The notes under the pieces were generated by a model. That model made no database searches, was not told where the DNA came from, and saw only the letters and a program-made list of their open reading frames with translations. This document shows positions 23,038-56,862 of a stretch of DNA of 64,000 nucleotides, in pieces. The DNA is taken from NCBI GenBank assembly GCA_050953885.1, contig JBMNNJ010000001.1, forward strand, positions 9,137 through 73,136. The letters are read 5' to 3'. The position numbers were made by a program, and so were the translations under genes. Within the stretch, counting starts at the first letter, position 1. Each line of letters opens with the position of its first letter. Origin of the DNA: Patescibacteria group bacterium. Its GTDB lineage: Bacteria; Patescibacteriota; Microgenomatia; 0-14-0-10-38-17.

Positions 23038-23301
23038 TTTCCCTCCAATTTTTTAATTGCCGGAGGGGATTAACTACAAAAGCTCCCCGTCAGCTGATGG
23101 TTCTTACGGAATCCACCCGCCAATCTTTCGATTGGTAACCTGCAGAAGATAACACTGGCGAAAAGCTTTCGCCTCTTCTGCAGGATTTTCTTGCCATGCC
23201 CAAAGGCTTGCGCCTCTGAGTTTAGACAATATTATTGTTAAGGTGATTATATAAAATTAGGGGTAGCTTTTCAAGTCTTCGTAATGTTCAGTTAACAGTA
23301 A

Positions 23302-26479: not shown

Positions 26480-27592
26480 TTAATTTTGGTGATGTGCCAA
26501 GACATTGTATCCACTCCAAGGGCCTAGTTTTACCGAGACATCATCAAGGATAATCGGTTGTACATAACGTATGTTATCATCAATCTCTGGTAATTGCATT
26601 TTCAGATATTGGTAGGGTATTTGATAGTCTAAGGATGAGTGTTCCCGGACATTGTTGTAGTAATAAATGTAACCCAGGGCCTCATTCAAGAGATCTTTTT
26701 TGCTCTTAATCTGTAGGACCCTGGGAATGTAGAACTCTTCGTCATCGGTTCTATGGCTTCTTTCCAAATGAGCATTCTCCTCAGGATGACCTTTGTGGTT
26801 CTGGATTAATCTACAGCCAAAACCCCTGATCAGTTTTCTTAACTCTTTGACCTTCAACCAGGATCTACCCCCAAATTCCTCACCATTATCAACAGTAAAG
26901 GCAATCTCTGATTTAACCCCATGAGACCTTAACCAGGAAATAGTCCAAAGGTAAAAACACAAACCATTAGTCCAAGATTTTTCCTTGGAATAAGCAATTA
27001 GTTTAAACCTAGAGTTAACATCCAGGGCTCCCCATTGATAGTTGGGAATATCATATTGGTTAAGATGAATAATTTGCTTTTTAGTCAGGGCTTTCTGATC
27101 CCTAATGAATTTGATATCCATTTGGACAATCTCAAAAGGTTTGGCTGAATACCAGTCAACAAACTCCCTTGGTTGTTTTCTTCTCTTGTTTGATTTTAGT
27201 TTGTAAGTAAGCCTGTCTTTATTCCTCCTTAGAATGTGCCTGATTGTTCCTGGAGGAACAAGAATCCCTTCATGTTTCTCAAGGTAGCGTGATAATCTTT
27301 TTGGCCCCAGGTGGGTTTTGTTCTTGGCCTTAATGACTTTACCTTCTGTCTTGGCTGGTGTCTTGTTGGGCTGGTGTTTTGGTATCTTGGGTCTGTCTTT
27401 AAGATTGCCCTCTTTGCTTTTTGCCAAGATGTCATAAACCACTGTCCTGTTGACCCTAAAAACCCTGGCGGTATCAGCAATGTTGTGGCCATTAGTCTTT
27501 AGATACTCAATCACTGTTTGTCTGGCTGCTTCTGGATTAATCTTTCTTAATTCCTTGTAGTCTATCCGGATTCCATGGATTCCAGGACTCAT
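26480..27592 (-). CDS. DDE transposase (N-terminal HTH + rve integrase core), IS481-like
   Basis: HTH (NIADTARVFRVNRTVVYDIL); DDE residues in QMDIKFI, FTVDNGEEFGG, HPEENAHLERSHRTDDEEFY; 100% identical to the first about 367 aa of the ORF at 42099. Confidence 0.8.
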   Translation of the reverse strand: MSPGIHGIRIDYKELRKINPEAARQTVIEYLKTNGHNIADTARVFRVNRTVVYDILAKSKEGNLKDRPKIPKHQPNKTPAKTEGKVIKAKNKTHLGPKRLSRYLEKHEGILVPPGTIRHILRRNKDRLTYKLKSNKRRKQPREFVDWYSAKPFEIVQMDIKFIRDQKALTKKQIIHLNQYDIPNYQWGALDVNSRFKLIAYSKEKSWTNGLCFYLWTISWLRSHGVKSEIAFTVDNGEEFGGRSWLKVKELRKLIRGFGCRLIQNHKGHPEENAHLERSHRTDDEEFYIPRVLQIKSKKDLLNEALGYIYYYNNVREHSSLDYQIPYQYLKMQLPEIDDNIRYVQPIILDDVSVKLGPWSGYNVLAHHQN

Positions 27593-41974: not shown

Positions 41975-43203
41975 GGAAATGTGCGGTGTCCAGGACATGC
42001 TATACACTTCATGAGGTTTGGGTATGAGGAATATGTAAGAAGAGTGTTAAAATTGGTGGGTGTTAATTTTGAGAGTGTAGTAAAGGGGGTGAAAAAGCAT
42101 GAGTCCTGGAATCCATGGAATCCGGATAGACTACAAGGAATTAAGAAAGATTAATCCAGAAGCAGCCAGACAAACAGTGATTGAGTATCTAAAGACTAAT
42201 GGCCACAACATTGCTGATACCGCCAGGGTTTTTAGGGTCAACAGGACAGTGGTTTATGACATCTTGGCAAAAAGCAAAGAGGGCAATCTTAAAGACAGAC
42301 CCAAGATACCAAAACACCAGCCCAACAAGACACCAGCCAAGACAGAAGGTAAAGTCATTAAGGCCAAGAACAAAACCCACCTGGGGCCAAAAAGATTATC
42401 ACGCTACCTTGAGAAACATGAAGGGATTCTTGTTCCTCCAGGAACAATCAGGCACATTCTAAGGAGGAATAAAGACAGGCTTACTTACAAACTAAAATCA
42501 AACAAGAGAAGAAAACAACCAAGGGAGTTTGTTGACTGGTATTCAGCTAAACCTTTTGAGATTGTCCAAATGGATATCAAATTCATTAGGGATCAGAAAG
42601 CCCTGACTAAAAAGCAAATTATTCATCTTAACCAATATGATATTCCCAACTATCAATGGGGAGCCCTGGATGTTAACTCTAGGTTTAAACTAATTGCTTA
42701 TTCCAAGGAAAAATCTTGGACTAATGGTTTGTGTTTTTACCTTTGGACTATTTCCTGGTTAAGGTCTCATGGGGTTAAATCAGAGATTGCCTTTACTGTT
42801 GATAATGGTGAGGAATTTGGGGGTAGATCCTGGTTGAAGGTCAAAGAGTTAAGAAAACTGATCAGGGGTTTTGGCTGTAGATTAATCCAGAACCACAAAG
42901 GTCATCCTGAGGAGAATGCTCATTTGGAAAGAAGCCATAGAACCGATGACGAAGAGTTCTACATTCCCAGGGTCCTACAGATTAAGAGCAAAAAAGATCT
43001 CTTGAATGAGGCCCTGGGTTACATTTATTACTACAACAATGTCCGGGAACACTCATCCTTAGACTATCAAATACCCTACCAATATCTGAAAATGCAATTA
43101 CCAGAGATTGATGATAACATACGTTATGTACAACCGATTATCCTTGATGATGTCTCGGTAAAACTAGGCCCTTGGAGTGGATACAATGTCTTGGCACATC
43201 ACC
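41975..43203 (+). mobile_element. IS element copy 2 (identical to copy 1, opposite orientation)
   Basis: Identity with 26483-27716 reverse complement begins at about 41975 (gggaaatgtgcgg) and ends at about 43203 (cacatcacc). Confidence 0.8.
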
Positions 43204-43322
43204 GAAATTGTTTTCCCGTCCAATCATGGTATTTTTCCTCAACCATTTGGCGTTCTTTTTCAACTCGTTGGTGGCGTTTTTCTAATTCGGCAGGAATAAC
43301 TTTTTTATTTTTCTTTAAATAA
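42099..43322 (+). CDS. DDE transposase, copy 2 (the ORF reads through the IS end; the in-element protein ends near 43205)
   Basis: Identical to the 26480-27592 product for about 367 aa; the last about 40 codons lie outside the IS and overlap iscU. Confidence 0.75.
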   Translation: MSPGIHGIRIDYKELRKINPEAARQTVIEYLKTNGHNIADTARVFRVNRTVVYDILAKSKEGNLKDRPKIPKHQPNKTPAKTEGKVIKAKNKTHLGPKRLSRYLEKHEGILVPPGTIRHILRRNKDRLTYKLKSNKRRKQPREFVDWYSAKPFEIVQMDIKFIRDQKALTKKQIIHLNQYDIPNYQWGALDVNSRFKLIAYSKEKSWTNGLCFYLWTISWLRSHGVKSEIAFTVDNGEEFGGRSWLKVKELRKLIRGFGCRLIQNHKGHPEENAHLERSHRTDDEEFYIPRVLQIKSKKDLLNEALGYIYYYNNVREHSSLDYQIPYQYLKMQLPEIDDNIRYVQPIILDDVSVKLGPWSGYNVLAHHRNCFPVQSWYFSSTIWRSFSTRWWRFSNSAGITFLFFFK

Positions 43323-44755
43323 TTATAAATTGCTTCGCTTAAGGCATCGGCGGCCAAAACCGAGCAGTGAATTTTTACCGGCGGCAAGCCTCCCAAGGAA
43401 TCAACGATTTCTTTTTGGCTAATTTTAAGAGCTTCGTCAAGGGTTTTGCCTTTGGCCATTTCGGTAATTTTTACGCTGGTGGCAATGGCGGCCACACAAT
43501 TATGGACAACATAGCCTCTTACTAAATAAGATTCAGAATGATTACTCATTTCAAGATTTGCTACTAAGCCCTGGTATTTTTTTAGTTTTATTTCTTTTAT
43601 CGGGACAAGAAAATGGTTATCAATATAATGGAAAAAGTGTTTTTTCCGTTTTAATCGGAAAGATATCTCATAAATAGGTTTAGCATTTATTTTCCTTCCT
43701 TCAATGTAATTTCTATTAGAGTAATTGCCTTCCTTGATAGACGAGAAAATTCCCCCCCTTGACAATATTTCTTGGATTTGGATGGCTAACTTCCTGGAGG
43801 CAGTTGCTACCCTATAGGTTTTAAAATCTTGAGGACGACGATGATATTCGTTGCCATCACCATTAAGGTATCCCGTAATCATTTGCCATTGTTTAGAAAA
43901 AGGGAGGAGAAGAATTTCTTCAGAAAGCCTCTTTTTATAGGCATACTTGCCGACGACAGAATTAAAGAACTTAGCCCATTTTCTAGAACAAAAATATATT
44001 TCACAAACATTTTTTCTTATCCTGAAGCTAGCATTCTTACCAGTAATATTTTTAATTAACTGTCTAACTTCATTGATAAGTTTTTTTTCTTTTTTGTTGA
44101 AGGCGAACGCAACAGCTCCATCATTGGCGATAAGATAGCCCTCGGCAAGATAATAACCCAAAAGCAGAAGCAACTCTTTAGAGTAAAATTTTGAATCCTT
44201 TATGGTTGTATTTGGCTGGTAAATGATATAGTCTCCCGGTTTCAGCTTGAATGCAGGGATAAATTCTGGCGATTGTTGTTTAAGTTTTTCGTGGTCTATT
44301 CTTAGCCAAGCGCTACCGCTTTTTCTGCTCAAGGGAATTTTATCTCTTTTAATAGCTAGCACAGGATGATCGGGTGTTATTGAAAATTTATTTAAGCGTG
44401 AGACAAAAGGAATAATCTCTAATATTTGGCCGTCATATTTACGGATAGATTTTCTTTTAACCTTGGTCTTAATTCCTCTTCCGTCTAAAACAAAGTCAAA
44501 ATTTTTGAAATTACCAATTTTTTCCCAATCTCCTTCATTAGCTAAAATTTCTTCTTCAAGTGGCAGACAGCCAAAAGTCTCAAATTTGATATCTTTAATA
44601 ATTTCCTCACCTTTGGCGTTTTTGCCTATTTTAAGATAAAGTTGCATCACATCGCCACAGACAATATTGCCCACTTTGCCCACGCCGTCCGGGTTTTTAA
44701 TTCGGCCGTAGTTTTTAACATTACGGAAGGCTTTTAAAACTTGTTGATTGTACAT
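43199..44755 (-). CDS. iscU: Fe-S cluster assembly scaffold IscU/NifU containing a large intein
   Basis: Exteins: MYNQQVLKAFRNVKNYGRIKNPDGVGKVGNIVCGDVMQLYLKI...IKFETFG + CVAAIATSVKITEMAKGKTLDEALK...VKIHCSVLAADAL reconstruct a canonical IscU (conserved Cys x3); downstream of iscS. Confidence 0.8.
   Translation of the reverse strand: MYNQQVLKAFRNVKNYGRIKNPDGVGKVGNIVCGDVMQLYLKIGKNAKGEEIIKDIKFETFGCLPLEEEILANEGDWEKIGNFKNFDFVLDGRGIKTKVKRKSIRKYDGQILEIIPFVSRLNKFSITPDHPVLAIKRDKIPLSRKSGSAWLRIDHEKLKQQSPEFIPAFKLKPGDYIIYQPNTTIKDSKFYSKELLLLLGYYLAEGYLIANDGAVAFAFNKKEKKLINEVRQLIKNITGKNASFRIRKNVCEIYFCSRKWAKFFNSVVGKYAYKKRLSEEILLLPFSKQWQMITGYLNGDGNEYHRRPQDFKTYRVATASRKLAIQIQEILSRGGIFSSIKEGNYSNRNYIEGRKINAKPIYEISFRLKRKKHFFHYIDNHFLVPIKEIKLKKYQGLVANLEMSNHSESYLVRGYVVHNCVAAIATSVKITEMAKGKTLDEALKISQKEIVDSLGGLPPVKIHCSVLAADALSEAIYNYLKKNKKVIPAELEKRHQRVEKERQMVEEKYHDWTGKQFR
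43499..44569 (-). other. intein of 357 aa with LAGLIDADG homing-endonuclease domain, inserted before the conserved IscU active-site Cys
   Basis: Starts CLPLEE (Cys1), block B TPDHPV, two LAGLIDADG-like motifs (LLLGYYLAEGYL; GYLNGDGNE), ends VVHN followed by +1 Cys. Confidence 0.75.
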
Positions 44756-48971: not shown

Positions 48972-50732
48972 ATGGCCACTAAAAATAATTCTCGCAAACT
49001 TCATTTAGGCAAAAGGCTTTTGGCTTATTTTAAGCCTTTTTGGCCAAGATTAATTTTGGTCGGTTTACTTCTTCTTTTAGGGATTGGTTTTAATCTTCTG
49101 GAGCCTTATTTTTTAGGTAAGATTATTGACGAAAAACTATTGGTTGGCGATTGGGAAGGGGCCCGGAAAATGATTTTTCTCCTGCTGGGGATTTATGGGG
49201 GCGCTTGGCTGACGCGGCTTCTTCAGGCAAGACTAATGGCCAAGATTTCCCAGGAAGCTTTATTTTCTCTGCGGCAGGATCTTTTTGTTCACCTGCAGGG
49301 GCTTTCGATCCGCTTTTTTGACCAAAGAGCTCATGGAGATTTAATGAGCCGGCTTACTAACGATATTGAGGCGATTAATCGCGCCCTAGGCCAAAACCTG
49401 CTTCAACTGGCAAGCAACTTTTTATCGTTAGTAGGCGTTTTGGTTTTCATCTTTTTTCTTAATCTTCCCTTAGCTTTAACGGTGGCTGTCAGTTTCCCTT
49501 TTGTGGTGGGGGTGACGATTTTAGTGACCAAAAGAACCAGGAAGGGTTTTCAGGCTTTGCAAAAAGAAATCGGCTCTCTTAATGGGGTTTTGGAAGAGCA
49601 AATTGGGGGGGTGCGAACCGTTCAAGCTTTTTCCCAACAAGAGAAAAGCTTGGTTTTATTTTCCCAAAAAAACGAAGCGGTTTGCCAGCGGGGTATTTAT
49701 GCTTCTACCTTTGCCTTTCTCCTTCCCCCTTTAATTAATATTTTTGCCAATGCCGATATTGGTTTGGTAGCGGGCGTGGGGGGATTTTTGGCCTTGCAGG
49801 GAAAGGTGGGCATTGGTTTGGTGGTGGCATTTATTAACTATTCCCGCCAGGTTTCCCAGCCGGTGCGTGAGCTGGCGGATATTTATAATTCTTTTCAGGA
49901 GGCCATATCTGGGGCGGGGCGGGTTTTTGAAATTATTGACTACCAACCGGAAATCAAAGATGCTCCTAATGCCCAAGATGTCAAGCTTCGGGGGAGAGTT
50001 ATTTTTGATAAGGTAAGTTTCTCTTACGATGAGGAAAAACCAGTTTTAAAAGAGATCAGTTTTACGGTTGAGCTGGGGCAGACATTGGCCTTGGTTGGTC
50101 CAACCGGGGCGGGAAAAACCACCATTGCCAATCTTCTTTTCCGTTTTTACGAGCCCGGGCGGGGAAAAATTTTTCTCGACGAGTGGGAAATAAGGGAGAT
50201 TAAAATTACTTCTCTTAGGCGACAATTGGGCTTGGTGCTCCAGGATCCCTTTCTTTTTTCGACGACTATTTTGGAAAATATTCGTTATGGCCGGCCAGAG
50301 GCAAGCCAAGAAGAAGTGATCGCGGCGGCCAAAATTGCCGGCGCTCATCAATTTATTAAGCGCCTGCCAAAGGGGTATCAAACAGAACTTTCTTGGGGGG
50401 GAACGGATTTAAGCCAAGGTCAGCGTCAGCTTTTAACCATTGCCCGGGCGGTTTTAGTAAATCCGGTGATTTTGCTTTTGGATGAGGCCACCAGCAGCGT
50501 CGACACTCGTACCGAAATAGAAATTCAGAAAGCTTTAGATCGGTTGCGCCAAAACCGAACCAGCATCGTTATTGCTCACCGGCTTTCAACAATTAGAAAC
50601 GCTGACCAGATTTTGTTTATTAAAAATGGCCGGATAAAGGAGCGGGGCACTCATCGGGAGCTTTTGGCCAAAAAAGGCTTTTACGCTCGTTTTTACCAAG
50701 CGCAGTTTGGAGGGCTAAAGTCTAGAGAATAA
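48972..50732 (+). CDS. ABC transporter permease/ATPase (type I exporter) subunit B
   Basis: TMD + NBD with GPTGAGKTT, LSQGQRQL, LLLDEATSSVD; adjacent to its paralogue, so likely a heterodimeric exporter. Confidence 0.85.
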   Translation: MATKNNSRKLHLGKRLLAYFKPFWPRLILVGLLLLLGIGFNLLEPYFLGKIIDEKLLVGDWEGARKMIFLLLGIYGGAWLTRLLQARLMAKISQEALFSLRQDLFVHLQGLSIRFFDQRAHGDLMSRLTNDIEAINRALGQNLLQLASNFLSLVGVLVFIFFLNLPLALTVAVSFPFVVGVTILVTKRTRKGFQALQKEIGSLNGVLEEQIGGVRTVQAFSQQEKSLVLFSQKNEAVCQRGIYASTFAFLLPPLINIFANADIGLVAGVGGFLALQGKVGIGLVVAFINYSRQVSQPVRELADIYNSFQEAISGAGRVFEIIDYQPEIKDAPNAQDVKLRGRVIFDKVSFSYDEEKPVLKEISFTVELGQTLALVGPTGAGKTTIANLLFRFYEPGRGKIFLDEWEIREIKITSLRRQLGLVLQDPFLFSTTILENIRYGRPEASQEEVIAAAKIAGAHQFIKRLPKGYQTELSWGGTDLSQGQRQLLTIARAVLVNPVILLLDEATSSVDTRTEIEIQKALDRLRQNRTSIVIAHRLSTIRNADQILFIKNGRIKERGTHRELLAKKGFYARFYQAQFGGLKSRE

Positions 50733-50753
50733 AAAATTTTCAAAAGCAGAACG

Positions 50754-50876
50754 GAGTAGCGCAGTTTACTGCGCGCTGATCTTGGCGCGAACTAAAGTTC
50801 GCTACTCCATTTTGTTGTGAATTAGCGCAATTTATTGCGCGCCAATTCCCGCGCGAACTAAAGTTCGCTACTCCAA
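50754..50876. repeat. tandem 66-68-bp structured repeats (x2) downstream of the ABC operon
   Basis: Unit 1 ggagtagcgcagtttactgcgcgctgatcttggcgcgaactaaagttcgctactcc (large hairpin + U tract); unit 2 shares gcgc..ttta..gcgcg..cgcgcgaactaaagttcgctactcc. Confidence 0.6.
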
Positions 50877-50891
50877 AAAAAAGAATGGAAT

Positions 50892-50918
50892 AGCGCGCTT
50901 CAGCGCGCGCTTATTTTT
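50892..50918 (+). terminator. rho-independent terminator (agcgcgcTTCAgcgcgcgct + uuauuuuu)
   Basis: GC-rich 8-bp stem followed by a T-run. Confidence 0.6.
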
Positions 50919-50986
50919 GGCGCATCCCATCTGTTTGCCCTTTGGCGAAAAGTTTGCTATCCGGTTTATGTCCCAGCGATATAATA

Positions 50987-51062
50987 TTTTTGCATCAGTA
51001 GACTATATTACGAATACAAGGGTAAAAAGTAAAGGAGAAAATTATCAAAATTAAAACCAATC
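50987..51062. repeat. left direct repeat (about 75 bp) flanking the AT-rich island
   Basis: ttttgcatcagtagactatattacgaatacaagggtaaaaagtaaaggagaaaattatcaaaattaaaaccaat is about 85% identical to 55749-55822. Confidence 0.7.
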
Positions 51063-51248
51063 AAGGATAAAAAAGCGTTTTTAGAGCCTCTGCGAAACAA
51101 ATCTTAAAACTGGCGGCTTCATTCGCCTTAATAACAGCCCTGTCGTTTTTTTAGTTTTAAAATTTTTTAAAAAAGTGAAACTATTGTACTATACAACAAG
51201 TGTATAATTGTATTTTAATTAAAATACCTACCATTAAGCACTATCGCT

Positions 51249-51758
51249 ATGAATACTCCCGAAAAAATTGGTATAACTAGAAAAAACTTGATGACACGTG
51301 AGACTGAGAAAAGACTAAAAATAGCCTTAGCCGAAGTTGAAGAAAAAGCAAAAATGGCATTAAAAGCTGTTGGTGAAAGTGCGGGACCAAGTAGTGATTG
51401 GCACGATAATTTCCCTTTCGAACAGGCTAATCGTGATTTCGAACTTTATTCTTCAGAAGTAACAATGATTAAAAAGCAATTAGAAAATCGAGAAATTATA
51501 AAACCAAGGGGAGAAATAGCGGAGGTAGGTGTAGGTAATGAGGTTGTTATTATCCTTAATAATGAAGAAAAGCCTGAAGTTTTTACGTTGCTAGGTAGTG
51601 CAGACTCATTTACGAAAACTGGCTGGCTTTCATGTGAATCGCCACTAGGGTCAAGCCTTATAGGCAAAAAAGTTGGGGAAATGATAATATTTTCCGTAGG
51701 GGAAAAGGTCATAAAAGGAAAGATTCTTGAAATTCGTCCCGGGAAATTTGATTTTTAG
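51249..51758 (+). CDS. GreA/GreB-family protein (Rnk-like, regulator-of-NDK type)
   Basis: C-terminal FKBP-like Gre domain: EVFTLLGSADSFTKTGWLSCESPLGSSLIGKKVGEMIIFSVGEKVIKGKILEIRP; N-terminal coiled coil lacks the acidic GreA tip. Confidence 0.65.
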   Translation: MNTPEKIGITRKNLMTRETEKRLKIALAEVEEKAKMALKAVGESAGPSSDWHDNFPFEQANRDFELYSSEVTMIKKQLENREIIKPRGEIAEVGVGNEVVIILNNEEKPEVFTLLGSADSFTKTGWLSCESPLGSSLIGKKVGEMIIFSVGEKVIKGKILEIRPGKFDF

Positions 51759-51795
51759 AAAAAATATGATAATATTGTAGAAAATAACAAAAGTA

Positions 51796-52329
51796 ATGAT
51801 TTCTATGTCTAACGCCCCTGTTTTCGAGTTTGAAAGAAAATTTATCGTTAAGAAAATAAGCTCGCTTCCTTTTGATCTAGCTAAGGCGCAAAAGGCCGAT
51901 ATTAAACAAGGTTTTTATTCAGGTTTGCCTTCTCCTTTGCGAATTAGAGCGATAAATGACGAATATACCCTGACGAAAAAATTTGTGTTAGGAGAAAATA
52001 AGGGCCAATTAGAAGAAGTAACTCTTCCTCTTAAAAAATCAGAATTTAAGGTTCTTTTCCCTCGCGCTTATAAGAAAATTTTCAAAACCCGTTATTCTTT
52101 TTGTTGGCATGGTTATAAGGTCGATCTTGATGTGTTTAGGGGGAAGCTTAAGGGCTTAATTATTGCCGAATTTGAATTTGCCAGCAAAGAGGAGATGGAA
52201 CAATTTCTTCCTCCCTCATTTTTAGGGGCGGAAATAACCCAACAAGAATGGGCCACTAATTCTCGTCTTGCCCTTTTAACTTTTAGCCGGCTCCAAAAAA
52301 TTCTTGTCCGTTATGAAAAAACTATCTGA
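51796..52329 (+). CDS. CYTH-domain protein (triphosphate tunnel metalloenzyme / CyaB-like)
   Basis: N-terminal ExExK signature FEFERKFIV; size about 177 aa fits CYTH. Confidence 0.6.
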   Translation: MISMSNAPVFEFERKFIVKKISSLPFDLAKAQKADIKQGFYSGLPSPLRIRAINDEYTLTKKFVLGENKGQLEEVTLPLKKSEFKVLFPRAYKKIFKTRYSFCWHGYKVDLDVFRGKLKGLIIAEFEFASKEEMEQFLPPSFLGAEITQQEWATNSRLALLTFSRLQKILVRYEKTI

Positions 52330-53569
52330 AGATAAGATAATTGATTTAAAGTTGGATTTACTAATGCAAGGGGTTGATTGTGATTTTAATAATTTGAAAA
52401 CAAAAAGGGATATTGATTCTTATCGTGTAAATAAAATTAGAGTGTCTGATAGACACTTTATTAACCCTAAAAGTAAAAAAAGAAAATATATTCCGGATGA
52501 AATTCTTATTGGGAACCATAATTTTTACCAAACAATTGCTAAAGTTTACTATAATCGAAACTCTAATTTTATTCTCACTTATCAAAAAACGGTCGATAAG
52601 TTTTTAATAAAAGATAAGAAAAAGAATTGCTATTTAGAGACAGAGGTAAACTTTATTCCTTTAAAAAGCTTTTCGAAGAGAATTTTTACCACCAAAGAAG
52701 GTAAAAAAATACCGGAGAATGAAATTGTCACGCCAATTTCGATTGATAGATTGACAATAAATCCCTTTGATGGGTGTTCTATGTGGTTAAATGGAAATGA
52801 GTGTAGTTTTTGTGGGGCTAGTCCGAAGAGAGTGATTGGGCCGCAGCAAATAAAGCCATCAATAACAACTATTTCCCAATACCAAAGCATTGGGGCATGG
52901 TGGAATAGCCAAAAGGAAACAGTCTTGGAGGTTATTTGTGATTCATTCCAACATATTAAAATATCGGACTTTAAACCGCATTTACACTTTGTAATCACAA
53001 CGGGTTTTCTATATGGTTTTGAATGGGACATAGTTATAGAAATTTTGAGCGTGATTAAAGAGTATTTTAAGGTAGGCGAAACTGATTCACATTTGTCTTT
53101 AATGCCGCCAAAGAATATTGACAAGCTTGAAACAGTAAAAAAACTTGGCATAAAAAACGTTGCTTTTAATCTTGAATGTTTTGATCAAAAAGTTTTTGAG
53201 GCTATTTGTAAAGGGAAAAACTTTTTTATTGGTTATAATAATTTTAGGGAAAAGCTAAGGGAGGCTGTAAAAATATTTGGACGTGGTCACGTAAGGACAA
53301 ATTTTGTTTTAGGATTAGAAGACTTAAAAAACCTTATAAAAGGTTGTGAAATTTTAGCTGAAGAAGGTATAGTTTCTGATTATACTATCTTCTTTCCCAG
53401 ACCAGCCTCTGGTATACAAAAAAAGACTAAGGATATATTGACTAAAGCGGAAGTTATCGATTTTACCAAAAATTTGGTAAAAATTTATCAACTCTATGAC
53501 TATAGACCTTTTACGTGTAATTTAAGTTCAAGGACTAGTATTGCCAACGATATTTATAATTTGCTTTGA
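52304..53569 (+). CDS. hypothetical 421-aa protein with CX8CX2C cluster (possible variant radical-SAM or metal-binding enzyme)
   Basis: DGCSMWLNGNECSFCGAS motif plus NVAFNLECFD; not a canonical CxxxCxxC, so the family is not asserted. Confidence 0.35.
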   Translation: MSVMKKLSEDKIIDLKLDLLMQGVDCDFNNLKTKRDIDSYRVNKIRVSDRHFINPKSKKRKYIPDEILIGNHNFYQTIAKVYYNRNSNFILTYQKTVDKFLIKDKKKNCYLETEVNFIPLKSFSKRIFTTKEGKKIPENEIVTPISIDRLTINPFDGCSMWLNGNECSFCGASPKRVIGPQQIKPSITTISQYQSIGAWWNSQKETVLEVICDSFQHIKISDFKPHLHFVITTGFLYGFEWDIVIEILSVIKEYFKVGETDSHLSLMPPKNIDKLETVKKLGIKNVAFNLECFDQKVFEAICKGKNFFIGYNNFREKLREAVKIFGRGHVRTNFVLGLEDLKNLIKGCEILAEEGIVSDYTIFFPRPASGIQKKTKDILTKAEVIDFTKNLVKIYQLYDYRPFTCNLSSRTSIANDIYNLL

Positions 53570-53765
53570 GAAAAATATTTTGCCTATGGATCCCGATTAT
53601 TTAAGGTACGAATCGTTTGAAAACCTATATGTCGAGACGCCACTTAAATGGGGTTTATTGTGTTTCAATCAAGCTCACCAGAAGCGAGAAGTTTTAAAAC
53701 TAACGACAGATATTGATGAAATACTATCATTGTTAAAAAAAAGGCTGGGAAAAGCATGCTGGTAG
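53541..53765 (+). CDS. small ORF (possibly the 5' part of a frameshifted gene continuing at 53797)
   Basis: ORF only; overlaps the upstream gene end; separated by 31 bp and a frame change from the next ORF. Confidence 0.2.
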   Translation: MPTIFIICFEKNILPMDPDYLRYESFENLYVETPLKWGLLCFNQAHQKREVLKLTTDIDEILSLLKKRLGKACW

Positions 53766-53796
53766 GAATCAATATATTTTACGTTCTCCTGAGAAA

Positions 53797-54630
53797 GTGC
53801 TTTGTGACCTTTCAGAGAGAGAAATTAACCCTACAGATAATTTAGATCTGTTGGTAGATTACTATACTTTTTTAAAAAATATAAATCTGGCGTCTTTAAT
53901 AAGAGAAATAAAAAGAGAAAATAAACACATTAAAGACCTAGAAATTATTCCCCTAACAAATCATATTTTTACAAGCGAGGTTAGAGTAGCAGCATCAGAT
54001 CAAAGAATAGACGTTGTGCCGGGTTTGATTTTTGAGTATTATCTGAAAACAAAGGGAATCAAAAATGTTGTTACTAATAAAAAATTGCCTAATAAATTAA
54101 GTGCGATGGATATTTTTGTAAAAAATTTTTATCAAGAAATCAGAAGATATTATCGTAAAATAGGTTATGAGTTGGTCCAAAATCCTGAAATTCCAGAAAT
54201 GGATTTTTGGGATAAATTTAGAGGAGAATATGATATTTATGTTTTTATCCCCAAATCGGCGATTAGATATTGCCTTAGTTTCTTAAATCGGGTTGGAATA
54301 GAATACCTTAATAAGGTTTGCCTTTGGGAATATCATACGGGTAACGATACAAATAAAGAGCTAGTTATATTTAAAAAAAATATATGCGGCAAAAGAGTCT
54401 TGGTGGTTGATCGCTCCTTTTCTAGCTACACGTTAACACATTTATCTCAAAAAATTAAAGAGAATGGCGCAGAAATAGTGGATAGACTCGCTATATTTCC
54501 AAAATCGCAAGCAGCGATCTTAAATAGTGAATATTGCTTTTTTTGGCATTCATTACTTAAGAGCCAGAAAGTTGATTTGAGTGGAGAATGGGCTCTCAGG
54601 CTTTTTAAGAAGGTGAATCATTCAATTTAA
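53797..54630 (+). CDS. hypothetical protein with degenerate type-I PRTase-like PRPP loop
   Basis: GKRVLVVDRSFSSYTLTHL resembles the hydrophobic-strand-DD-x-TGxT PRPP-binding motif, but degenerate. Confidence 0.3.
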   Translation: MLCDLSEREINPTDNLDLLVDYYTFLKNINLASLIREIKRENKHIKDLEIIPLTNHIFTSEVRVAASDQRIDVVPGLIFEYYLKTKGIKNVVTNKKLPNKLSAMDIFVKNFYQEIRRYYRKIGYELVQNPEIPEMDFWDKFRGEYDIYVFIPKSAIRYCLSFLNRVGIEYLNKVCLWEYHTGNDTNKELVIFKKNICGKRVLVVDRSFSSYTLTHLSQKIKENGAEIVDRLAIFPKSQAAILNSEYCFFWHSLLKSQKVDLSGEWALRLFKKVNHSI

Positions 54631-54635
54631 CGCCG

Positions 54636-55304
54636 TTAGTTTTCAAACAGAAGTTTTAAATAATTATTCATAATATTTATTTCTCTTTTTACCGATTCTA
54701 TACTGTCACTTCCATGAACTATACCGTTGTAATTATTTAGAGCAAATTGACCGCGGATAGTATTAGGATTTCTTCTTTCTTCAACATTCCAGTCCCCCAT
54801 TTGTGTTCTCCAAAAAGAAACAGCGTCGCCTTTGTTAGACCAGAGCAATAAAACAGTAGTTGGGCCCGACATCATTAAATTAGCAAATTCTTCCCAACGA
54901 TTTTGAAATTTATTTTTATAAACGTATGGTAATAGTTCTTGCTGTTTTCTCTTAGGCTCTCCATCATAAAATTCGTTTATTGTTTTTTCATCAAAAATAA
55001 GAGATAATTCAAAAATTATTTCGAGCGGAGGTTGTATAGCTTTTTTAATAGCATGGGCCAATTCGACATCACTTAGACCGGGTAAGTTAAGTTCCGCAGG
55101 TTTTATCATCGCTAACGTAATAAAGCCTTGTTCTATAGCTTCTGCAAAGGAGGGACTTTCTATCACTTGGATGATATTTTTTAATTTTAGTTTTTCTGTC
55201 TCTTCTAGAGAAAGTTCTTTATATTTATTAACAATTAGGTTTTCTCTTTGTAAAACAGGAGGAGTTTCTGCCTGTTTTAATGTATAAATTAAATTTTCGT
55301 GCAT
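54636..55304 (-). CDS. atypical nucleoside diphosphate kinase-like protein (222 aa, N-terminal extension + insertion)
   Basis: TLAMIKPAEL (NDK IIKP motif), MSGPTTVLLLW..., catalytic-His motif NGIVHGSDSIESVKREI. Confidence 0.65.
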   Translation of the reverse strand: MHENLIYTLKQAETPPVLQRENLIVNKYKELSLEETEKLKLKNIIQVIESPSFAEAIEQGFITLAMIKPAELNLPGLSDVELAHAIKKAIQPPLEIIFELSLIFDEKTINEFYDGEPKRKQQELLPYVYKNKFQNRWEEFANLMMSGPTTVLLLWSNKGDAVSFWRTQMGDWNVEERRNPNTIRGQFALNNYNGIVHGSDSIESVKREINIMNNYLKLLFEN

Positions 55305-55345
55305 TTTTAATTCCTCCTTTTTCTAACTTTACAAGAGATAATTTT

Positions 55346-55570
55346 TTAGAGTTTAAGTTGTCTTGCTAAGTTTTTATTTTTTAAAGTATTAAGGGACCCT
55401 ACATAGACTACTCGAAACTTATAGCCCTTAGATTCACGGTCATTTCCGATAAACTTTCTAATCTTCTTTTTTATTTTACCACGACTATTAAAATGTTTGT
55501 GCTGACAAGGGTCATTGGTAATACCTGAAGGAATACCAACAACCATACCCGATAGGTGTTTGGTAGTCAA
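55346..55570 (-). CDS. small ORF, possible transposase C-terminal remnant
   Basis: Weak resemblance (N..G.IKKKIRKF..G....F) to ISL3-type transposase C-termini; very uncertain. Confidence 0.2.
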   Translation of the reverse strand: MTTKHLSGMVVGIPSGITNDPCQHKHFNSRGKIKKKIRKFIGNDRESKGYKFRVVYVGSLNTLKNKNLARQLKL

Positions 55571-55748
55571 AAGCTTGGTGGGATTTCTTAGTGCTTGTAG
55601 AGTGCCTGGTATCCATCCTGTTAGGTTAAGATAACTTAATATTCGAAAACATTTGAAAGCCTAATAAAGGAGGAAAAATAACCCGGGGGTTGTTTTAAGC
55701 AGCAGCAATTTTTTCTTAGTAGGCGCTGACTTTATTTATATTTTAAAC

Positions 55749-55822
55749 CTTTTGTATCAGTAGACTATATTACGAATGCAAGAACAAAAGTAAAAGAGAA
55801 ATTATCGTATTAAAATCAATTC
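55749..55822. repeat. right direct repeat (about 75 bp) flanking the AT-rich island
   Basis: cttttgtatcagtagactatattacgaatgcaagaacaaaagtaaaagagaaattatcgtattaaaatcaat. Confidence 0.7.
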
Positions 55823-55842
55823 CGGCTGTTTGGGAGCATAAA

Positions 55843-56862
55843 CTAGAGCCGACGGACTTTTTTTCTGATGGTTTCCAAAATATAGACAGGAAAATATTTT
55901 AAGGGATCGATAATAAGGTCGTGGGCGGGAACATATTTTACCTCTTCTCCCCCAAATCCTCTTTTAAAAACAGAAACGCCGTAGAAGCGGTGTTTGGTTT
56001 GATTTTTGTCAACAATCCCCCAAAAATTGAATCGGGGGATTTCTAACTTTTGGGCGTCATTAATTGCTTGCCAAAGGATAGCCGGGGCGGCTGGTAAGCG
56101 CCTCCCCGCCTCGGTACTGGCGCCAAAATGGTAGCTTGATTCGGTGGGGTAATGAATAATCAGGGCATAAGCGAGCGGCTTTCCTTCTAAGACTGCTTTG
56201 TAAAGAAGCGCCTGATGGTGCTTAGCAAAGGAGGAAAATTCGGCGCGAATTAAAGGAAGAGAAAAAGGGACAAATTTCTGCCTTTTGGCAGTTTGGACCT
56301 GAACGTGGTAGAACTCATCAACAGATTTAATATCGGTGGTAGAAACGATCTTAATCCCTAATTTTTTTGCCTTTTTAATTTCGTATCGGGTGGTTTTGCG
56401 CATTTGCGCCAGTATCGCTTCCGGGTTTTGTTTGAGATTAAGCTGGAGGGTATGCTCTGCGGTCAGGTGCATGGGCGAAGGTCTTAATTGGTTTTCTTTA
56501 AGTATTTGGCGGATTTCTTCGCTGTCTTTAATTTGGGGGCGAATCCTGACAAAAGCGCACTTCTCTTTCTTGACAATTTCAAAAATTTGCGCAAAGAAGA
56601 ATTTTATTAGGTTTTTCTCTTTCCAATTGACAAGCGGGCCGCCGGCAATGGTTAAATACCGGCCTCTTTTGGCGTTTTCCACCACCCCTAAGGAAACGCC
56701 GATGATTTTCTTTCTTTCAAAAATTCCCCAATAATAAACTTTTTTACCTAAACTTTCGTGCGTTTGGCCATAAGAAAAAGACTGCAAAAAATTGCTTTCG
56801 GGGCAAGAAGTAACAAACTCTTCCCATTTTTGGCGATCGTTAACTTCTTTTATGCTGGCCAT
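55843..56862 (-). CDS. FemAB-family peptidoglycan bridge-forming aminoacyltransferase
   Basis: FLQSFSYGQTHESLG N-terminal FemAB signature; length about 339 aa. Confidence 0.7.
   Translation of the reverse strand: MASIKEVNDRQKWEEFVTSCPESNFLQSFSYGQTHESLGKKVYYWGIFERKKIIGVSLGVVENAKRGRYLTIAGGPLVNWKEKNLIKFFFAQIFEIVKKEKCAFVRIRPQIKDSEEIRQILKENQLRPSPMHLTAEHTLQLNLKQNPEAILAQMRKTTRYEIKKAKKLGIKIVSTTDIKSVDEFYHVQVQTAKRQKFVPFSLPLIRAEFSSFAKHHQALLYKAVLEGKPLAYALIIHYPTESSYHFGASTEAGRRLPAAPAILWQAINDAQKLEIPRFNFWGIVDKNQTKHRFYGVSVFKRGFGGEEVKYVPAHDLIIDPLKYFPVYILETIRKKVRRL

What the first reader, a model, noticed from the sequence alone, without database searches (positions are those of the whole stretch)
51045..55745. 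AT-rich island of about 4.7 kb flanked by ~75-bp direct repeats, carrying a nucleotide-centric gene set (Rnk/GreA-like, CYTH, CX8CX2C protein, PRTase-like, atypical NDK)
Seen in sequence: ~75-bp direct repeats (50987-51062 and 55749-55822, about 85% identical) bracket a markedly AT-rich block. The block is inserted between two convergent host genes, the ABC exporter and femAB. Inside it are a GreA/GreB C-terminal-domain protein lacking the acidic tip, an ExExK CYTH protein, a 421-aa CX8CX2C protein, a protein with a degenerate PRPP-loop, and on the opposite strand an NDK homologue with extension and insertion, plus a possible transposase remnant. Established knowledge: Rnk, a Gre-family protein, is named as a regulator of nucleoside diphosphate kinase, so the co-occurrence of an Rnk-like gene and an NDK-like gene is unlikely to be chance. 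CYTH enzymes hydrolyse or cyclise nucleoside triphosphates, and PRTase-like and nucleotide-processing domains recur in phage-defence and nucleotide-signalling systems. Inference: this is a horizontally acquired module acting on nucleotides, which could be a signalling, depletion or modification system or a novel defence island. I cannot assign it to any named system.
Basis: partly seen in the sequence, partly recalled or inferred. Interest (0 to 1): 0.85.

Follow-up and report, generated by a model that had tools for sequence, protein, structure and literature searches.

The report
Mobile radical-SAM nucleotide module with Gre paralogue
This AT-rich insert in an uncultured ultra-small (Patescibacteria) bacterium is one copy of a rare, uncharacterised operon found in about 44 loci from tiny bacteria and archaea: an unusual radical-SAM enzyme, an unknown partner protein and a triphosphatase, travelling with nucleotide kinases and a spare copy of the factor that rescues stalled RNA polymerase, so it probably makes a modified nucleotide that affects transcription.

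Summary
A 4.7-kb block (GC 0.33 against about 0.41 in the flanks, the lowest 4.7-kb stretch in the window) lies between convergent ABC-exporter and FemAB genes. It is bracketed by ~75-nt direct repeats (82% identical, exact 22-nt core).

Some details need correcting:
- The 74-aa and 277-aa ORFs are one 347-aa gene ("X"), split here by an A8/A7 homopolymer.
- The Gre protein is a full-length GreA paralogue with a WHD[NE] tip, not Rnk-like.
- Nothing supports a transposase remnant.

Across 44 non-redundant loci from CPR bacteria, DPANN archaea and one virus-like contig:
- The invariant core is the variant radical-SAM enzyme (CX8CX2C, NCBIfam NF045502) followed directly by X (new N-domain plus PRTase-like domain), usually with a triphosphate-tunnel (CYTH) enzyme, once fused to the rSAM.
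- Recurrent accessories are Gre paralogues or TFS-type cleavage factors, divergent TMK-family kinases, NUDIX, MazG and HD. NDK occurs only in this lineage.
- The module sits in different contexts, is usually AT-richer than its flanks, has flanking repeats at several loci, and is often frameshifted.

Best reading (confidence about 0.4): a mobile operon that makes a modified nucleotide by dephosphorylation, modification and rephosphorylation, with a dedicated cleavage factor handling RNA polymerase. No named system matches.

The parts
50747..50930 (+). Host flank: two tandem long GC-rich hairpins plus a terminator-like hairpin after the ABC exporter stop codon. Not part of the island.
   Evidence: Repeat families D1, I1 and I2; terminator-like site at 50892-50911; fold energy z = -5.4.
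50988..51062 (.). Left direct repeat at the island boundary
   Evidence: 82% identical to the right copy over about 75 nt, with an exact 22-nt core at 50994-51015.
51249..51758 (+). GreA paralogue (169 aa). It has a coiled-coil N-domain and a Gre C-domain. The tip motif DWHDN replaces the canonical DLxEN.
   Evidence: Pfam GreA_GreB 1.4e-14. NCBIfam GreA models align over the full length but score below cut-off. Tip alignments. Paralogues occur next to the module in 19 loci.
51796..52329 (+). CYTH / triphosphate tunnel metalloenzyme (177 aa) of the NeuTTM subtype, with an ExExK motif (FEFERK)
   Evidence: A profile of this subtype hits PDB 3typ/2fbl at 4.4e-15. It also matches phrog_6660 at 1.5e-15. 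It is fused to the rSAM in L031.
52313..53569 (+). Variant radical-SAM enzyme (418 aa from the ATG at 52313; the ORF opens at a TTG at 52304). It carries CX8CX2C and an N-terminal beta-rich domain.
53586..54630 (+). Gene X (347 aa when intact): a novel N-terminal alpha/beta domain plus a PRTase / PRPP-synthetase-like C-domain. In this window it is split by a +1 frameshift into the 74-aa ORF and the 277-aa ORF.
53735..53742 (+). A8 homopolymer that breaks gene X. It is polymorphic (A7 or A8) among assemblies of the same strain cluster.
   Evidence: the window and L012 have A8; L013, L014 and L016 have A7. Gene calls and 100% matches to the window add L011, L015 and L017 (split) and L018 (fused). 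Sequence.
54636..55304 (-). Atypical NDK homologue (222 aa). It has an N-terminal extension of about 60 aa, a divergent N-half, and a retained HGSDS catalytic motif. It is specific to this lineage.
   Evidence: Pfam NDK at 61.1 bits against a cut-off of 27. NCBIfam equivalogs all score below cut-off. PDB alignments. Absent from the other 43 loci.
55346..55570 (-). ORF of 74 aa with unknown function, possibly not a gene
   Evidence: No family match. No similarity to the neighbours of other modules.
55750..55822 (.). Right direct repeat at the island boundary, 20 nt beyond the FemAB stop codon

Best explanation
The island is one copy of a rare, horizontally mobile operon found only in genome-reduced CPR bacteria and DPANN archaea, plus one rSAM homologue on a virus-like contig.

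Shown:
- The core is a variant radical-SAM enzyme and protein X, which always sit together, usually with a triphosphate-tunnel (CYTH) enzyme.
- The accessories are nucleotide kinases, NTP pyrophosphatases and a paralogue of the transcript-cleavage factor (Gre in most bacterial loci, TFS type in archaeal and some bacterial loci).

Inferred mechanism:
1. The operon makes a modified nucleotide, most likely a pyrimidine or thymidylate-like one, using the same dephosphorylate, modify, rephosphorylate logic as phage nucleotide-modification pathways and viperin-kinase pairs.
2. CYTH, NUDIX, MazG or HD remove or process the triphosphate.
3. The rSAM enzyme, working with X (whose PRTase-like loop would hold a ribose-5-phosphate group), performs the radical modification.
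4. The TMK-like kinase, and here the NDK-like kinase, restore the triphosphate.
5. The product reaches the multisubunit RNA polymerase. The dedicated Gre or TFS paralogue enters the secondary channel to cleave or rescue transcripts that end in the analogue, acting as self-protection or proofreading. Polymerases without such a factor (for example single-subunit viral ones) would stay blocked.

The A7/A8 tract in X may switch the system off, or may mark decay.
For: Conservation and linkage:
- rSAM is found in 44 non-redundant loci, with X directly downstream in 42.
- The CYTH and rSAM genes are fused in L031.
- Two different TTM subfamilies fill the same slot: NeuTTM-like and SaTTM-like.

Accessories:
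- Gre paralogues in 19 loci and TFS type in 6.
- TMK family in 12 loci. These score below the dTMP-kinase equivalog cut-off, while a canonical tmk lies nearby in L060.
- NUDIX in 7 loci, MazG in 4, HD in 1, and P-loop or dNMP-kinase-like and dCTP-deaminase-like genes in L037 and L038.

The cleavage factors look catalytically competent:
- The TFS-type proteins keep the acidic DE(D) loop.
- The Gre paralogues keep an Asp in a shared WHD[NE] tip.
- L031 also has a canonical GreA about 4 kb away, so the module copy is an extra one.

Folds:
- The rSAM is a full-barrel BioB/LipA/HydG/ThiH-type small-molecule enzyme.
- The X C-domain is PRTase / PRPP-synthetase-like, with a Ser/Thr-rich phosphate loop, DRSxSxxTL.

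Precedents:
- Viperins are linked to CMPK2/TMK-superfamily kinases, and some are fused to a 'triphosphatase or cyclase domain' (10.1101/2023.09.13.557418).
- A nucleoside-analogue triphosphate arrests multisubunit RNAP by backtracking, and GreA relieves the arrest (PMC6821320).

Mobility:
- Related modules (about 45-59% identical proteins) sit in three different contexts: ABC|FemAB, YceG|MreB and Fpg|NTP-transferase.
- Module GC is lower than the flanks in 17 of 22 loci.
- Flanking direct repeats also occur at L045 (49 nt), L050 (32 nt), L052/L053 (38 nt) and L031 (16 nt).
Against: - No substrate, product or activity is known for any member. The chemistry is entirely inferred.
- The rSAM is structurally closer to sulfur-insertion and amino-acid-lyase enzymes than to viperin or MoaA. 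The PADLOC viperin models do not hit it.
- The X PRPP loop is degenerate (D-R or D-N instead of D-D), so X may only bind a ligand.
- Gre or TFS factors are missing from about 19 of the 44 loci, though several of those contigs are truncated.
- TFS-type factors occur in bacterial contigs, where their target polymerase is unclear.
- Known defence genes are not clearly enriched nearby.
- No recombinase lies inside any module, and no empty site was found.
- X is broken in this window, so this copy may be inactive.
Confidence: 0.4

Rival explanations
1. Signalling system. The rSAM, X and CYTH proteins synthesise a new nucleotide second messenger or alarmone. The Gre or TFS paralogue is its effector and binds the RNA polymerase secondary channel to reprogramme or shut down transcription, like ppGpp with DksA or the virus-induced inhibitor TFS4. 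NUDIX, MazG and HD enzymes degrade the signal.
For: - Secondary-channel factor paralogues are linked to the module across both domains of life.
- The Gre tip is remodelled to WHD[NE] rather than the canonical DLxEN.
- TFS4 shows that a cleavage-factor paralogue can become an RNAP inhibitor in an antiviral response (PMC5715097).
- MazG, NUDIX and HD enzymes could act as signal hydrolases.
Against: - TFS4 inhibits through a KKK tip that has lost the acidic pair. Here the TFS-type proteins keep DE(D) and the Gre proteins keep an Asp, which points to cleavage rather than inhibition.
- NMP and NDP kinases as the commonest partners fit bulk nucleotide conversion better than signalling.
- No sensor or cyclase-type synthetase is evident.
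Confidence: 0.2
2. Nucleic-acid hypermodification pathway of viral origin. The module makes a modified (deoxy)nucleotide that is incorporated into the DNA or RNA of the cell or a virus, for self-marking or to evade restriction. The island would be a domesticated or leftover viral cassette.
For: - The gene set mirrors phage pathways: NTP pyrophosphatase, a modifying enzyme, a dNMP kinase and NDK. This comparison rests on established knowledge of T4 gp56, gp42 and gp1.
- TMK-like, dCTP-deaminase-like and dNMP-kinase-like neighbours are present.
- An rSAM homologue with CX8CX2C sits next to terminase and portal genes on L064.
- CYTH matches a phage family, phrog_6660.
Against: - No relatives of the rSAM or X were found in 2.9 million IMG/VR viral contigs, and only a weak partial hit in GenBank phages.
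- There are no polymerase, glycosylase/transferase (DpdA-like) or structural genes in the cellular modules.
- The link to transcript-cleavage factors is not explained by DNA modification.
Confidence: 0.15
3. Ordinary metabolism. The module is a salvage or cofactor pathway, for example nucleotide salvage or a biotin-, lipoate- or thiamine-type radical-SAM step, needed by auxotrophic symbionts. Gre and the kinases would be neighbours only by operon packing.
For: - The rSAM is closest in fold to LipA, BioB, ThiH and HydG.
- In L001 and L049 the module lies inside an acetyl-CoA-carboxylase / biotin-ligase gene cluster.
- CYTH enzymes include thiamine triphosphatase (established knowledge).
- PRTases, TMK, NDK and NUDIX are classic salvage enzymes.
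Against: - The families are extremely rare: 25 rSAM clusters among 5.8 billion proteins and 130 X representatives among 1.84 billion. This is far too sparse for a required pathway in CPR and DPANN organisms.
- Contexts vary and GC is low.
- Frameshifts and deletions are frequent.
- The module kinases are divergent paralogues sitting beside a canonical tmk.
- The auxiliary-cluster cysteines of LipA and BioB are absent; only C302 and C405 are conserved in addition.
Confidence: 0.1
4. No system at all. Unrelated genes lie together by chance in an AT-rich intergenic expansion, and the repeats are a local duplication with no role in mobility.
For: - There is no recombinase and no empty site.
- The repeats at different loci share no sequence, and some look promoter-like.
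Against: - The rSAM-X adjacency recurs in 42 of 44 loci across two domains of life, with the same accessory families recurring and one gene fusion.
- The 22-nt exact repeat core is expected 0 times by chance.
Confidence: 0.03

Closest known systems
Prokaryotic and eukaryotic viperin (pVip / RSAD2) with linked NMP kinase (CMPK2 / TMK superfamily)
   Same: - A radical-SAM enzyme is genetically linked to TMK-superfamily kinases.
- Some viperins are fused to a triphosphatase or cyclase domain, which parallels the CYTH-rSAM fusion here.
- Both have an accessory, patchy distribution.
- The viperin product is a nucleotide analogue that blocks polymerases.
   Different: - The PADLOC pVip models do not hit it.
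- It needs an obligatory partner, X, which is unknown in viperin loci.
- It is linked to Gre or TFS paralogues.
Phage nucleotide-modification pathways (T4 dCTPase / dCMP hydroxymethylase / dNMP kinase; thymidine hypermodification; the PurZ-MazZ-DatZ 2-aminoadenine set)
   Same: The logic of NTP pyrophosphatase (NUDIX, MazG, HD, CYTH), then a modifying enzyme, then an NMP kinase, then NDK. This rests on established knowledge, compared with the gene sets.
   Different: - The modifying enzyme is a variant rSAM plus X.
- The loci are cellular in CPR and DPANN genomes.
- No relatives were found in IMG/VR.
- Transcript-cleavage factors are not part of the phage sets.
Secondary-channel regulators: GreA/GreB, Gfh1, Rnk, DksA-ppGpp, archaeal TFS1/TFS4
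   Same: - The module carries a two-domain Gre homologue or a two-zinc-ribbon TFS homologue.
- TFS4 is a precedent for a paralogue specialised in virus-host conflict.
   Different: - The tip motif WHD[NE] was not found described anywhere.
- It is not Rnk: the coiled coil is full length and the NCBIfam Rnk models score far below their cut-offs.
- It is not TFS4-like, because the acidic loop is kept rather than replaced by KKK.
- A link to a biosynthetic operon is not reported for any of these factors.
[quoted passage not shown]
   Same: - The same motif spacing, and the same structural neighbourhood of BioB, ThiH and HydG.
- It passes the NF045502 cut-off.
   Different: - These are uncharacterised bins with no assigned function.
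- Membership in Megacluster-4-6 is inferred from the motif and the fold. It was not tested directly.
7-deazapurine nucleoside pathways (QueD releases triphosphate, QueE is an rSAM, then a PRTase such as TubE/ToyH)
   Same: A combination of triphosphate handling, a radical-SAM step and a PRTase-type enzyme (established knowledge; PMC6112128 is listed).
   Different: - No GTP cyclohydrolase, QueD or QueC is present.
- The rSAM is not QueE-like in fold ranking.

Membership tests
Radical SAM superfamily | Three-Cys motif binding the SAM-cleaving [4Fe-4S] cluster (canonical CX3CX2C), on a (beta/alpha) barrel | tested here: met
   [not shown]
Viperin (pVip / RSAD2) | Match to viperin-specific models; CX3CX2C; an NTP-binding partial barrel with viperin as nearest structural neighbour | tested here: not met
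   [not shown]
CYTH / triphosphate tunnel metalloenzyme | N-terminal ExExK motif and homology to solved TTM enzymes | tested here: met
   FEFERK lies at residues 10-15. The subtype profile hits NeuTTM (2fbl/3typ) at 4.4e-15. Pfam CYTH does not hit the window protein, but it does hit the equivalent gene in L001, L004, L005, L008 and L010. The L001 subtype matches SaTTM (7ns8) at 3.7e-18.
Type I phosphoribosyltransferase / PRPP synthetase fold (X C-domain) | PRT fold with a PRPP/ribose-5-phosphate loop: acidic pair followed by xxTGxT | tested here: inconclusive
   [not shown]
GreA/GreB transcript cleavage factors | N-terminal coiled coil with two acidic tip residues (D41 and E44 in E. coli GreA), plus a C-terminal globular domain | tested here: inconclusive
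   The C-domain passes Pfam (54 bits against a cut-off of 26.9). The protein aligns over the full length of the GreA models but scores below the equivalog cut-offs (71.6 against 145). The tip is DWHDN. In the other loci only the Asp of WHD is constant.
Rnk (regulator of nucleoside diphosphate kinase) | Short N-terminal domain (about 136 aa in total) and a match to the Rnk equivalog models | tested here: not met
   NF004548 scores 22.2 bits against a cut-off of 126, and NF004396 scores 14 bits against 109. The protein is 169 aa with a full coiled coil. The NDK partner is absent from the other 43 loci.
Nucleoside diphosphate kinase | NDK fold with the catalytic His in an NxxHGSD motif | tested here: met
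   Pfam NDK scores 61.1 bits against a cut-off of 27. The sequence NGIVHGSDS aligns with NDK active sites. The protein is atypical: all NCBIfam equivalogs score below cut-off, and it has an N-terminal extension of about 60 aa.
Known anti-phage defence systems (PADLOC-DB v2) | Match of any component to a defence-system model; location among known defence genes | tested here: not met
   The seven island proteins gave 0 hits at E <= 1. The 134 neighbours gave only generic hits: methyltransferase, ThiF-like E1, and SPASM rSAMs matching the pVip model. This does not exclude a new defence function.
Integrative genomic island | Deviant composition, flanking direct repeats, variable occupancy (an empty site), and a recombinase or tRNA target | tested here: inconclusive
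   Composition and repeats are met. Repeats also flank the module at L031, L045, L050 and L052/L053. Context varies across lineages. There is no recombinase and no tRNA at the site, and no empty site among contigs with identical flanking proteins.

The most novel reading that the evidence does not exclude
A previously unrecognised class of mobile system, shared between CPR bacteria and DPANN archaea, in which a radical-SAM-made nucleotide acts on the multisubunit RNA polymerase through its secondary channel together with a dedicated cleavage-factor paralogue (Gre with a WHD tip, or TFS type). It would work either as a toxin-and-immunity pair built on a polymerase-arresting nucleotide analogue, or as a new alarmone-and-effector pair. 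Archaeal-type TFS factors occur in bacterial modules, so the factor could even be matched to the polymerase of the partner or host cell of these episymbionts rather than to their own.
Probability: 0.25. Interest if true: 0.9.

Novelty: new variant of a known kind. Interest (0 to 1): 0.72.

Why it matters
- It defines a conserved, cross-domain gene module built on two protein families with no known function: the CX8CX2C rSAM family NF045502 and protein X.
- It gives both families a testable context of nucleotide chemistry coupled to RNA polymerase proofreading factors.
- If the product is a polymerase-arresting nucleotide, this would be a second, independent invention of viperin-like chemistry. 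It would also be the first case I could find of a biosynthetic operon carrying its own Gre or TFS factor as a resistance or effector component.
- It points to gene flow between CPR bacteria and DPANN archaea, whose biology is almost unexplored experimentally.
- It gives a concrete set of small proteins that can be expressed in E. coli.

Tried and rejected
- **Rnk-NDK link:** rejected. NDK occurs only in this lineage and the Rnk models fail.
- **Transposase remnant at 55346-55570:** no family hit in four libraries, and no similarity to any neighbour protein elsewhere.
- **RNA elements:** Rfam found nothing meaningful in 50600-56000; the only hit was rli40 at E 0.86. No tRNA lies at the insertion site.
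- **Empty site:** exact-protein look-ups for FemAB and for the ABC exporter returned only island-bearing or too-short contigs.
- **Viral origin:** two IMG/VR scans, with the rSAM and with X, found nothing. GenBank phages gave one weak partial rSAM hit. NDK hits in phage records are ordinary NDK.
- **Viperin membership:** rejected.
- **Defence-island context:** PADLOC on 134 neighbours gave only generic hits.
- **Profile-profile comparison of the two CYTH subtypes:** inconclusive because the alignment was too shallow. Resolved instead through PDB matches.
- **AFDB fold search for X:** the library was unavailable. BFVD gave only weak PRPP-synthetase matches.
- **Literature:** searches for CYTH + radical SAM, TTM + radical SAM, and Gre + viperin-type systems found no description of this module.

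Full report
**1. The observation**

The block is real and is not a chance feature.
- Ungapped, 50988-51034 and 55750-55796 are 83% identical over 47 nt.
- The 22-nt core ATCAGTAGACTATATTACGAAT occurs exactly twice in 64 kb, with none expected in shuffles.
- Between the repeats GC is 0.330, against 0.40-0.42 on either side. This is the lowest 4.7-kb stretch in the window. Third-codon-position GC is 0.23-0.32, against 0.38-0.46 in flanking genes.
- The flanks are convergent: an ABC exporter ending at 50732, followed by strong hairpins and a terminator-like site, and FemAB ending at 55843.

**2. What the genes are**

- **51249-51758: a two-domain GreA paralogue.** The Pfam C-domain scores 1.4e-14. 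NCBIfam GreA models align end to end but score below cut-off, and the Rnk models score far below cut-off.
- **51796-52329: a triphosphate-tunnel (CYTH) enzyme.** It has the ExExK motif. A profile of this subtype hits the Nitrosomonas triphosphatase NeuTTM at 4e-15.
- **52313-53569: a radical-SAM enzyme.**
  - It has an invariant CX8CX2C motif and passes NCBIfam NF045502 'variant_rSAM' (176 bits against 125).
  - This fits the uncharacterised CX8CX2C subclusters of the 'biotin and thiazole synthase' megacluster in PMC9477430.
- **The 74-aa and 277-aa ORFs: one gene, X.**
  - Four other assemblies of the same strain cluster have A7 where the window has A8 (53735-53742), and they encode a single 347-362-aa product.
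  - Its N-domain has no convincing relative.
  - Its PRPP-type loop is DRSxSxxTL, with one acidic residue lost.
- **54636-55304 (minus strand): an NDK homologue.** It keeps the HGSDS histidine motif but has an N-terminal extension and a divergent N-half.
- **55346-55570:** matches nothing.

**3. Related loci**

The rSAM family is tiny: 25 clusters among 5.8 billion proteins. X has 130 representatives among 1.84 billion.

I collected 44 non-redundant loci from contig look-ups, GTDB genomes and JGI metagenomes. Clustering their neighbours gave these counts:

| Component | Loci (of 44) | Notes |
|---|---|---|
| rSAM | 44 | |
| X | 42 | Always immediately after the rSAM |
| CYTH | most | Upstream of the rSAM or downstream of X; fused to the rSAM in L031 |
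| Gre paralogue | 19 | |
| TFS/TFIIS-type two-zinc-ribbon protein | 6 | |
| Thymidylate-kinase-family protein | 12 | |
| NUDIX | 7 | |
| MazG | 4 | |
| Unknown 109-aa protein | 6 | |
| NDK | 1 | This strain cluster only |

- Other accessories are an HD hydrolase, P-loop kinases, a dCTP-deaminase-like gene and methyltransferases.
- CYTH comes in two subtypes, NeuTTM-like and SaTTM-like.
- The module-linked TMK-like kinases score below the dTMP-kinase equivalog cut-off, while L060 also has a canonical tmk nearby. They are therefore dedicated paralogues.
- L031 likewise has a canonical GreA about 4 kb from the module's Gre.
- All module Gre proteins share a WHD[NE] tip where GreA has DLxEN. The TFS-type proteins keep an acidic DE(D) loop.
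- Carriers named in records are Patescibacteria (including Saccharibacteria), Nanoarchaeota, Nanohalarchaeota, and one 'Methanosarcinales' MAG whose rSAM is 74% identical to a Nanoarchaeota one.
- One contig (L064) carries a homologous CX8CX2C rSAM next to terminase and portal genes. IMG/VR holds no relative of the rSAM or of X.

**4. Mobility and decay**

- Modules whose proteins are about 45-59% identical to the window's lie between different housekeeping genes: ABC|FemAB here, YceG|MreB in L031, and Fpg|NTP-transferase in L029.
- Module GC is below flank GC in 17 of 22 loci with enough flank.
- Flanking direct repeats, unrelated in sequence, also occur at L045 (49 nt, 100%), L050 (32 nt), L052/L053 (38 nt) and L031 (16 nt).
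- No module contains a recombinase.
- I found no empty site among contigs with identical FemAB or ABC proteins.
- Inactivation is common:
  - X is split in the window, L001-3, L043, L049, L052 and L071.
  - The rSAM is split in L063 and L036/L057.
  - L029 has a deletion spanning the rSAM C-terminus and the X N-terminus.
- The two best-studied breaks in X both fall at homopolymers in the inter-domain linker.

**5. How it most likely works**

Shown: a conserved, mobile, accessory operon whose parts all bind or process nucleotides or triphosphates, linked to paralogues of the factors that reach the RNA polymerase active site through the secondary channel.

Inferred: a modified nucleotide is made by dephosphorylation, modification and rephosphorylation.
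- CYTH, NUDIX, MazG or HD process the triphosphate.
- The rSAM and X carry out the radical step on a ribose-5-phosphate-bearing substrate.
- The TMK-like kinase, and here the NDK-like kinase, rebuild the triphosphate.
- The Gre or TFS paralogue, which still carries acidic tip residues, cleaves or rescues transcripts that stall on the product.

Support for the inference:
- The same partnership logic occurs in viperins, which are linked to NMP kinases and sometimes fused to a triphosphatase or cyclase domain (10.1101/2023.09.13.557418).
- A nucleoside-analogue triphosphate arrests multisubunit RNAP by backtracking, and GreA relieves the arrest (PMC6821320).

I put this at about 0.4, because no activity is known. 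In addition, the rSAM fold is nearer to sulfur-insertion and amino-acid-lyase enzymes than to known nucleotide-modifying rSAMs.

**6. Rivals**

- **Alarmone with the Gre or TFS paralogue as effector (about 0.2).** This is attractive because of DksA-ppGpp and TFS4 (PMC5715097). However, TFS4 works through a KKK tip that has lost its acids, whereas these factors keep theirs.
- **DNA or RNA hypermodification cassette of viral origin (about 0.15).** It fits the kinase, pyrophosphatase and deaminase set and the contig L064. It does not explain the cleavage factors or the absence from viral collections.
- **Housekeeping salvage or cofactor synthesis (about 0.1).** It fits the fold and the biotin/ACC context of L001 and L049. 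It does not fit the rarity, patchiness, low GC and frequent decay.
- **Chance juxtaposition.** Excluded by the conserved synteny.

**7. Comparison with known systems, and novelty**

- The module works most like viperin-kinase loci and phage nucleotide-modification sets, but it is not a member of either. The viperin models and fold ranking fail, and X has no described relative.
- The Gre paralogue is not Rnk.
- PADLOC has no model for any component.
- Full-text searches found no description of the module.
- I class it as a new variant of a known kind, namely accessory radical-SAM nucleotide modules. There is a real chance (about 0.25) that it is something categorically new: a nucleotide and secondary-channel-factor pair acting on RNA polymerase.
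- The unexplained presence of archaeal-type TFS factors in bacterial modules is the oddest single feature.

**8. Verdict**

- Its interpretation is partly supported. A horizontally acquired nucleotide module is supported. The Rnk-NDK link, the five-gene unit and the transposase remnant are not.
- Interest is 0.72. The finding gives a concrete, experimentally tractable handle on two function-less protein families and on an unexpected link between radical-SAM nucleotide chemistry and transcript cleavage factors in CPR and DPANN organisms.

Noticed in passing
window 23096-23228 (-): LOOT RNA (Rfam RF03000) at 65.5 bits against a gathering score of 46.4. It is the only non-tRNA Rfam hit in the window.
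   Followed up: no
window 50747-50930 (+): Two tandem copies of a long GC-rich hairpin of about 57 nt (GGAGTAGCG...CGCTACTCC), followed by a terminator-like hairpin, directly after the ABC exporter stop codon. The fold energy has z = -5.4. Among the fetched loci the element is present only in contigs of the same strain cluster.
   Followed up: partly
window 43081-43209 and 26482-26610: A 129-nt inverted repeat at 99% identity, seen as a secondary BLAST match of L011 to the window.
   Followed up: no
window about 43199-44755 (-) (= L011 119-1675): A NifU_N gene interrupted by a LAGLIDADG_3 domain, which suggests an intein or homing endonuclease insertion according to precomputed Pfam hits.
   Followed up: no
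window 53735-53742, and L002 9446-9452: Gene X is broken at homopolymers in the same inter-domain linker in two unrelated lineages. In the window cluster an A8 run alternates with A7 across nine assemblies. In L001-L003 the break is at a T7 run. This could be phase variation, transcriptional slippage or decay.
   Followed up: partly
L064 238-5688: A virus-like contig in which a CX8CX2C rSAM homologue (about 28% identical) lies directly upstream of small-terminase-like, large-terminase and portal genes.
   Followed up: partly
L004 2430-4522: A second CYTH gene lies next to a B12-binding radical-SAM gene, about 3 kb upstream of the X-CYTH-rSAM-HD module and beside IMPDH and adenylosuccinate synthetase genes.
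   Followed up: no
L001 10419-10739, L040 4348-4713, L050 4005-4340: Archaeal-type TFS/TFIIS two-zinc-ribbon proteins with an intact acidic loop are encoded directly after X in bacterial contigs. L001 carries bacterial NusA, RNase Y and PlsY. The L010/L050 lineage carries UvrB and the pol III delta subunit.
   Followed up: partly
L045 761-809 and 3958-4006: A perfect 49-nt direct repeat brackets the module. A diverged second copy of the upstream gene's last ~40 nt lies just inside the left repeat, which suggests a recent insertion at a gene's 3' end.
   Followed up: no
L005 10373-10702 and five other loci: A conserved 109-aa protein with no family match follows X in six loci.
   Followed up: no
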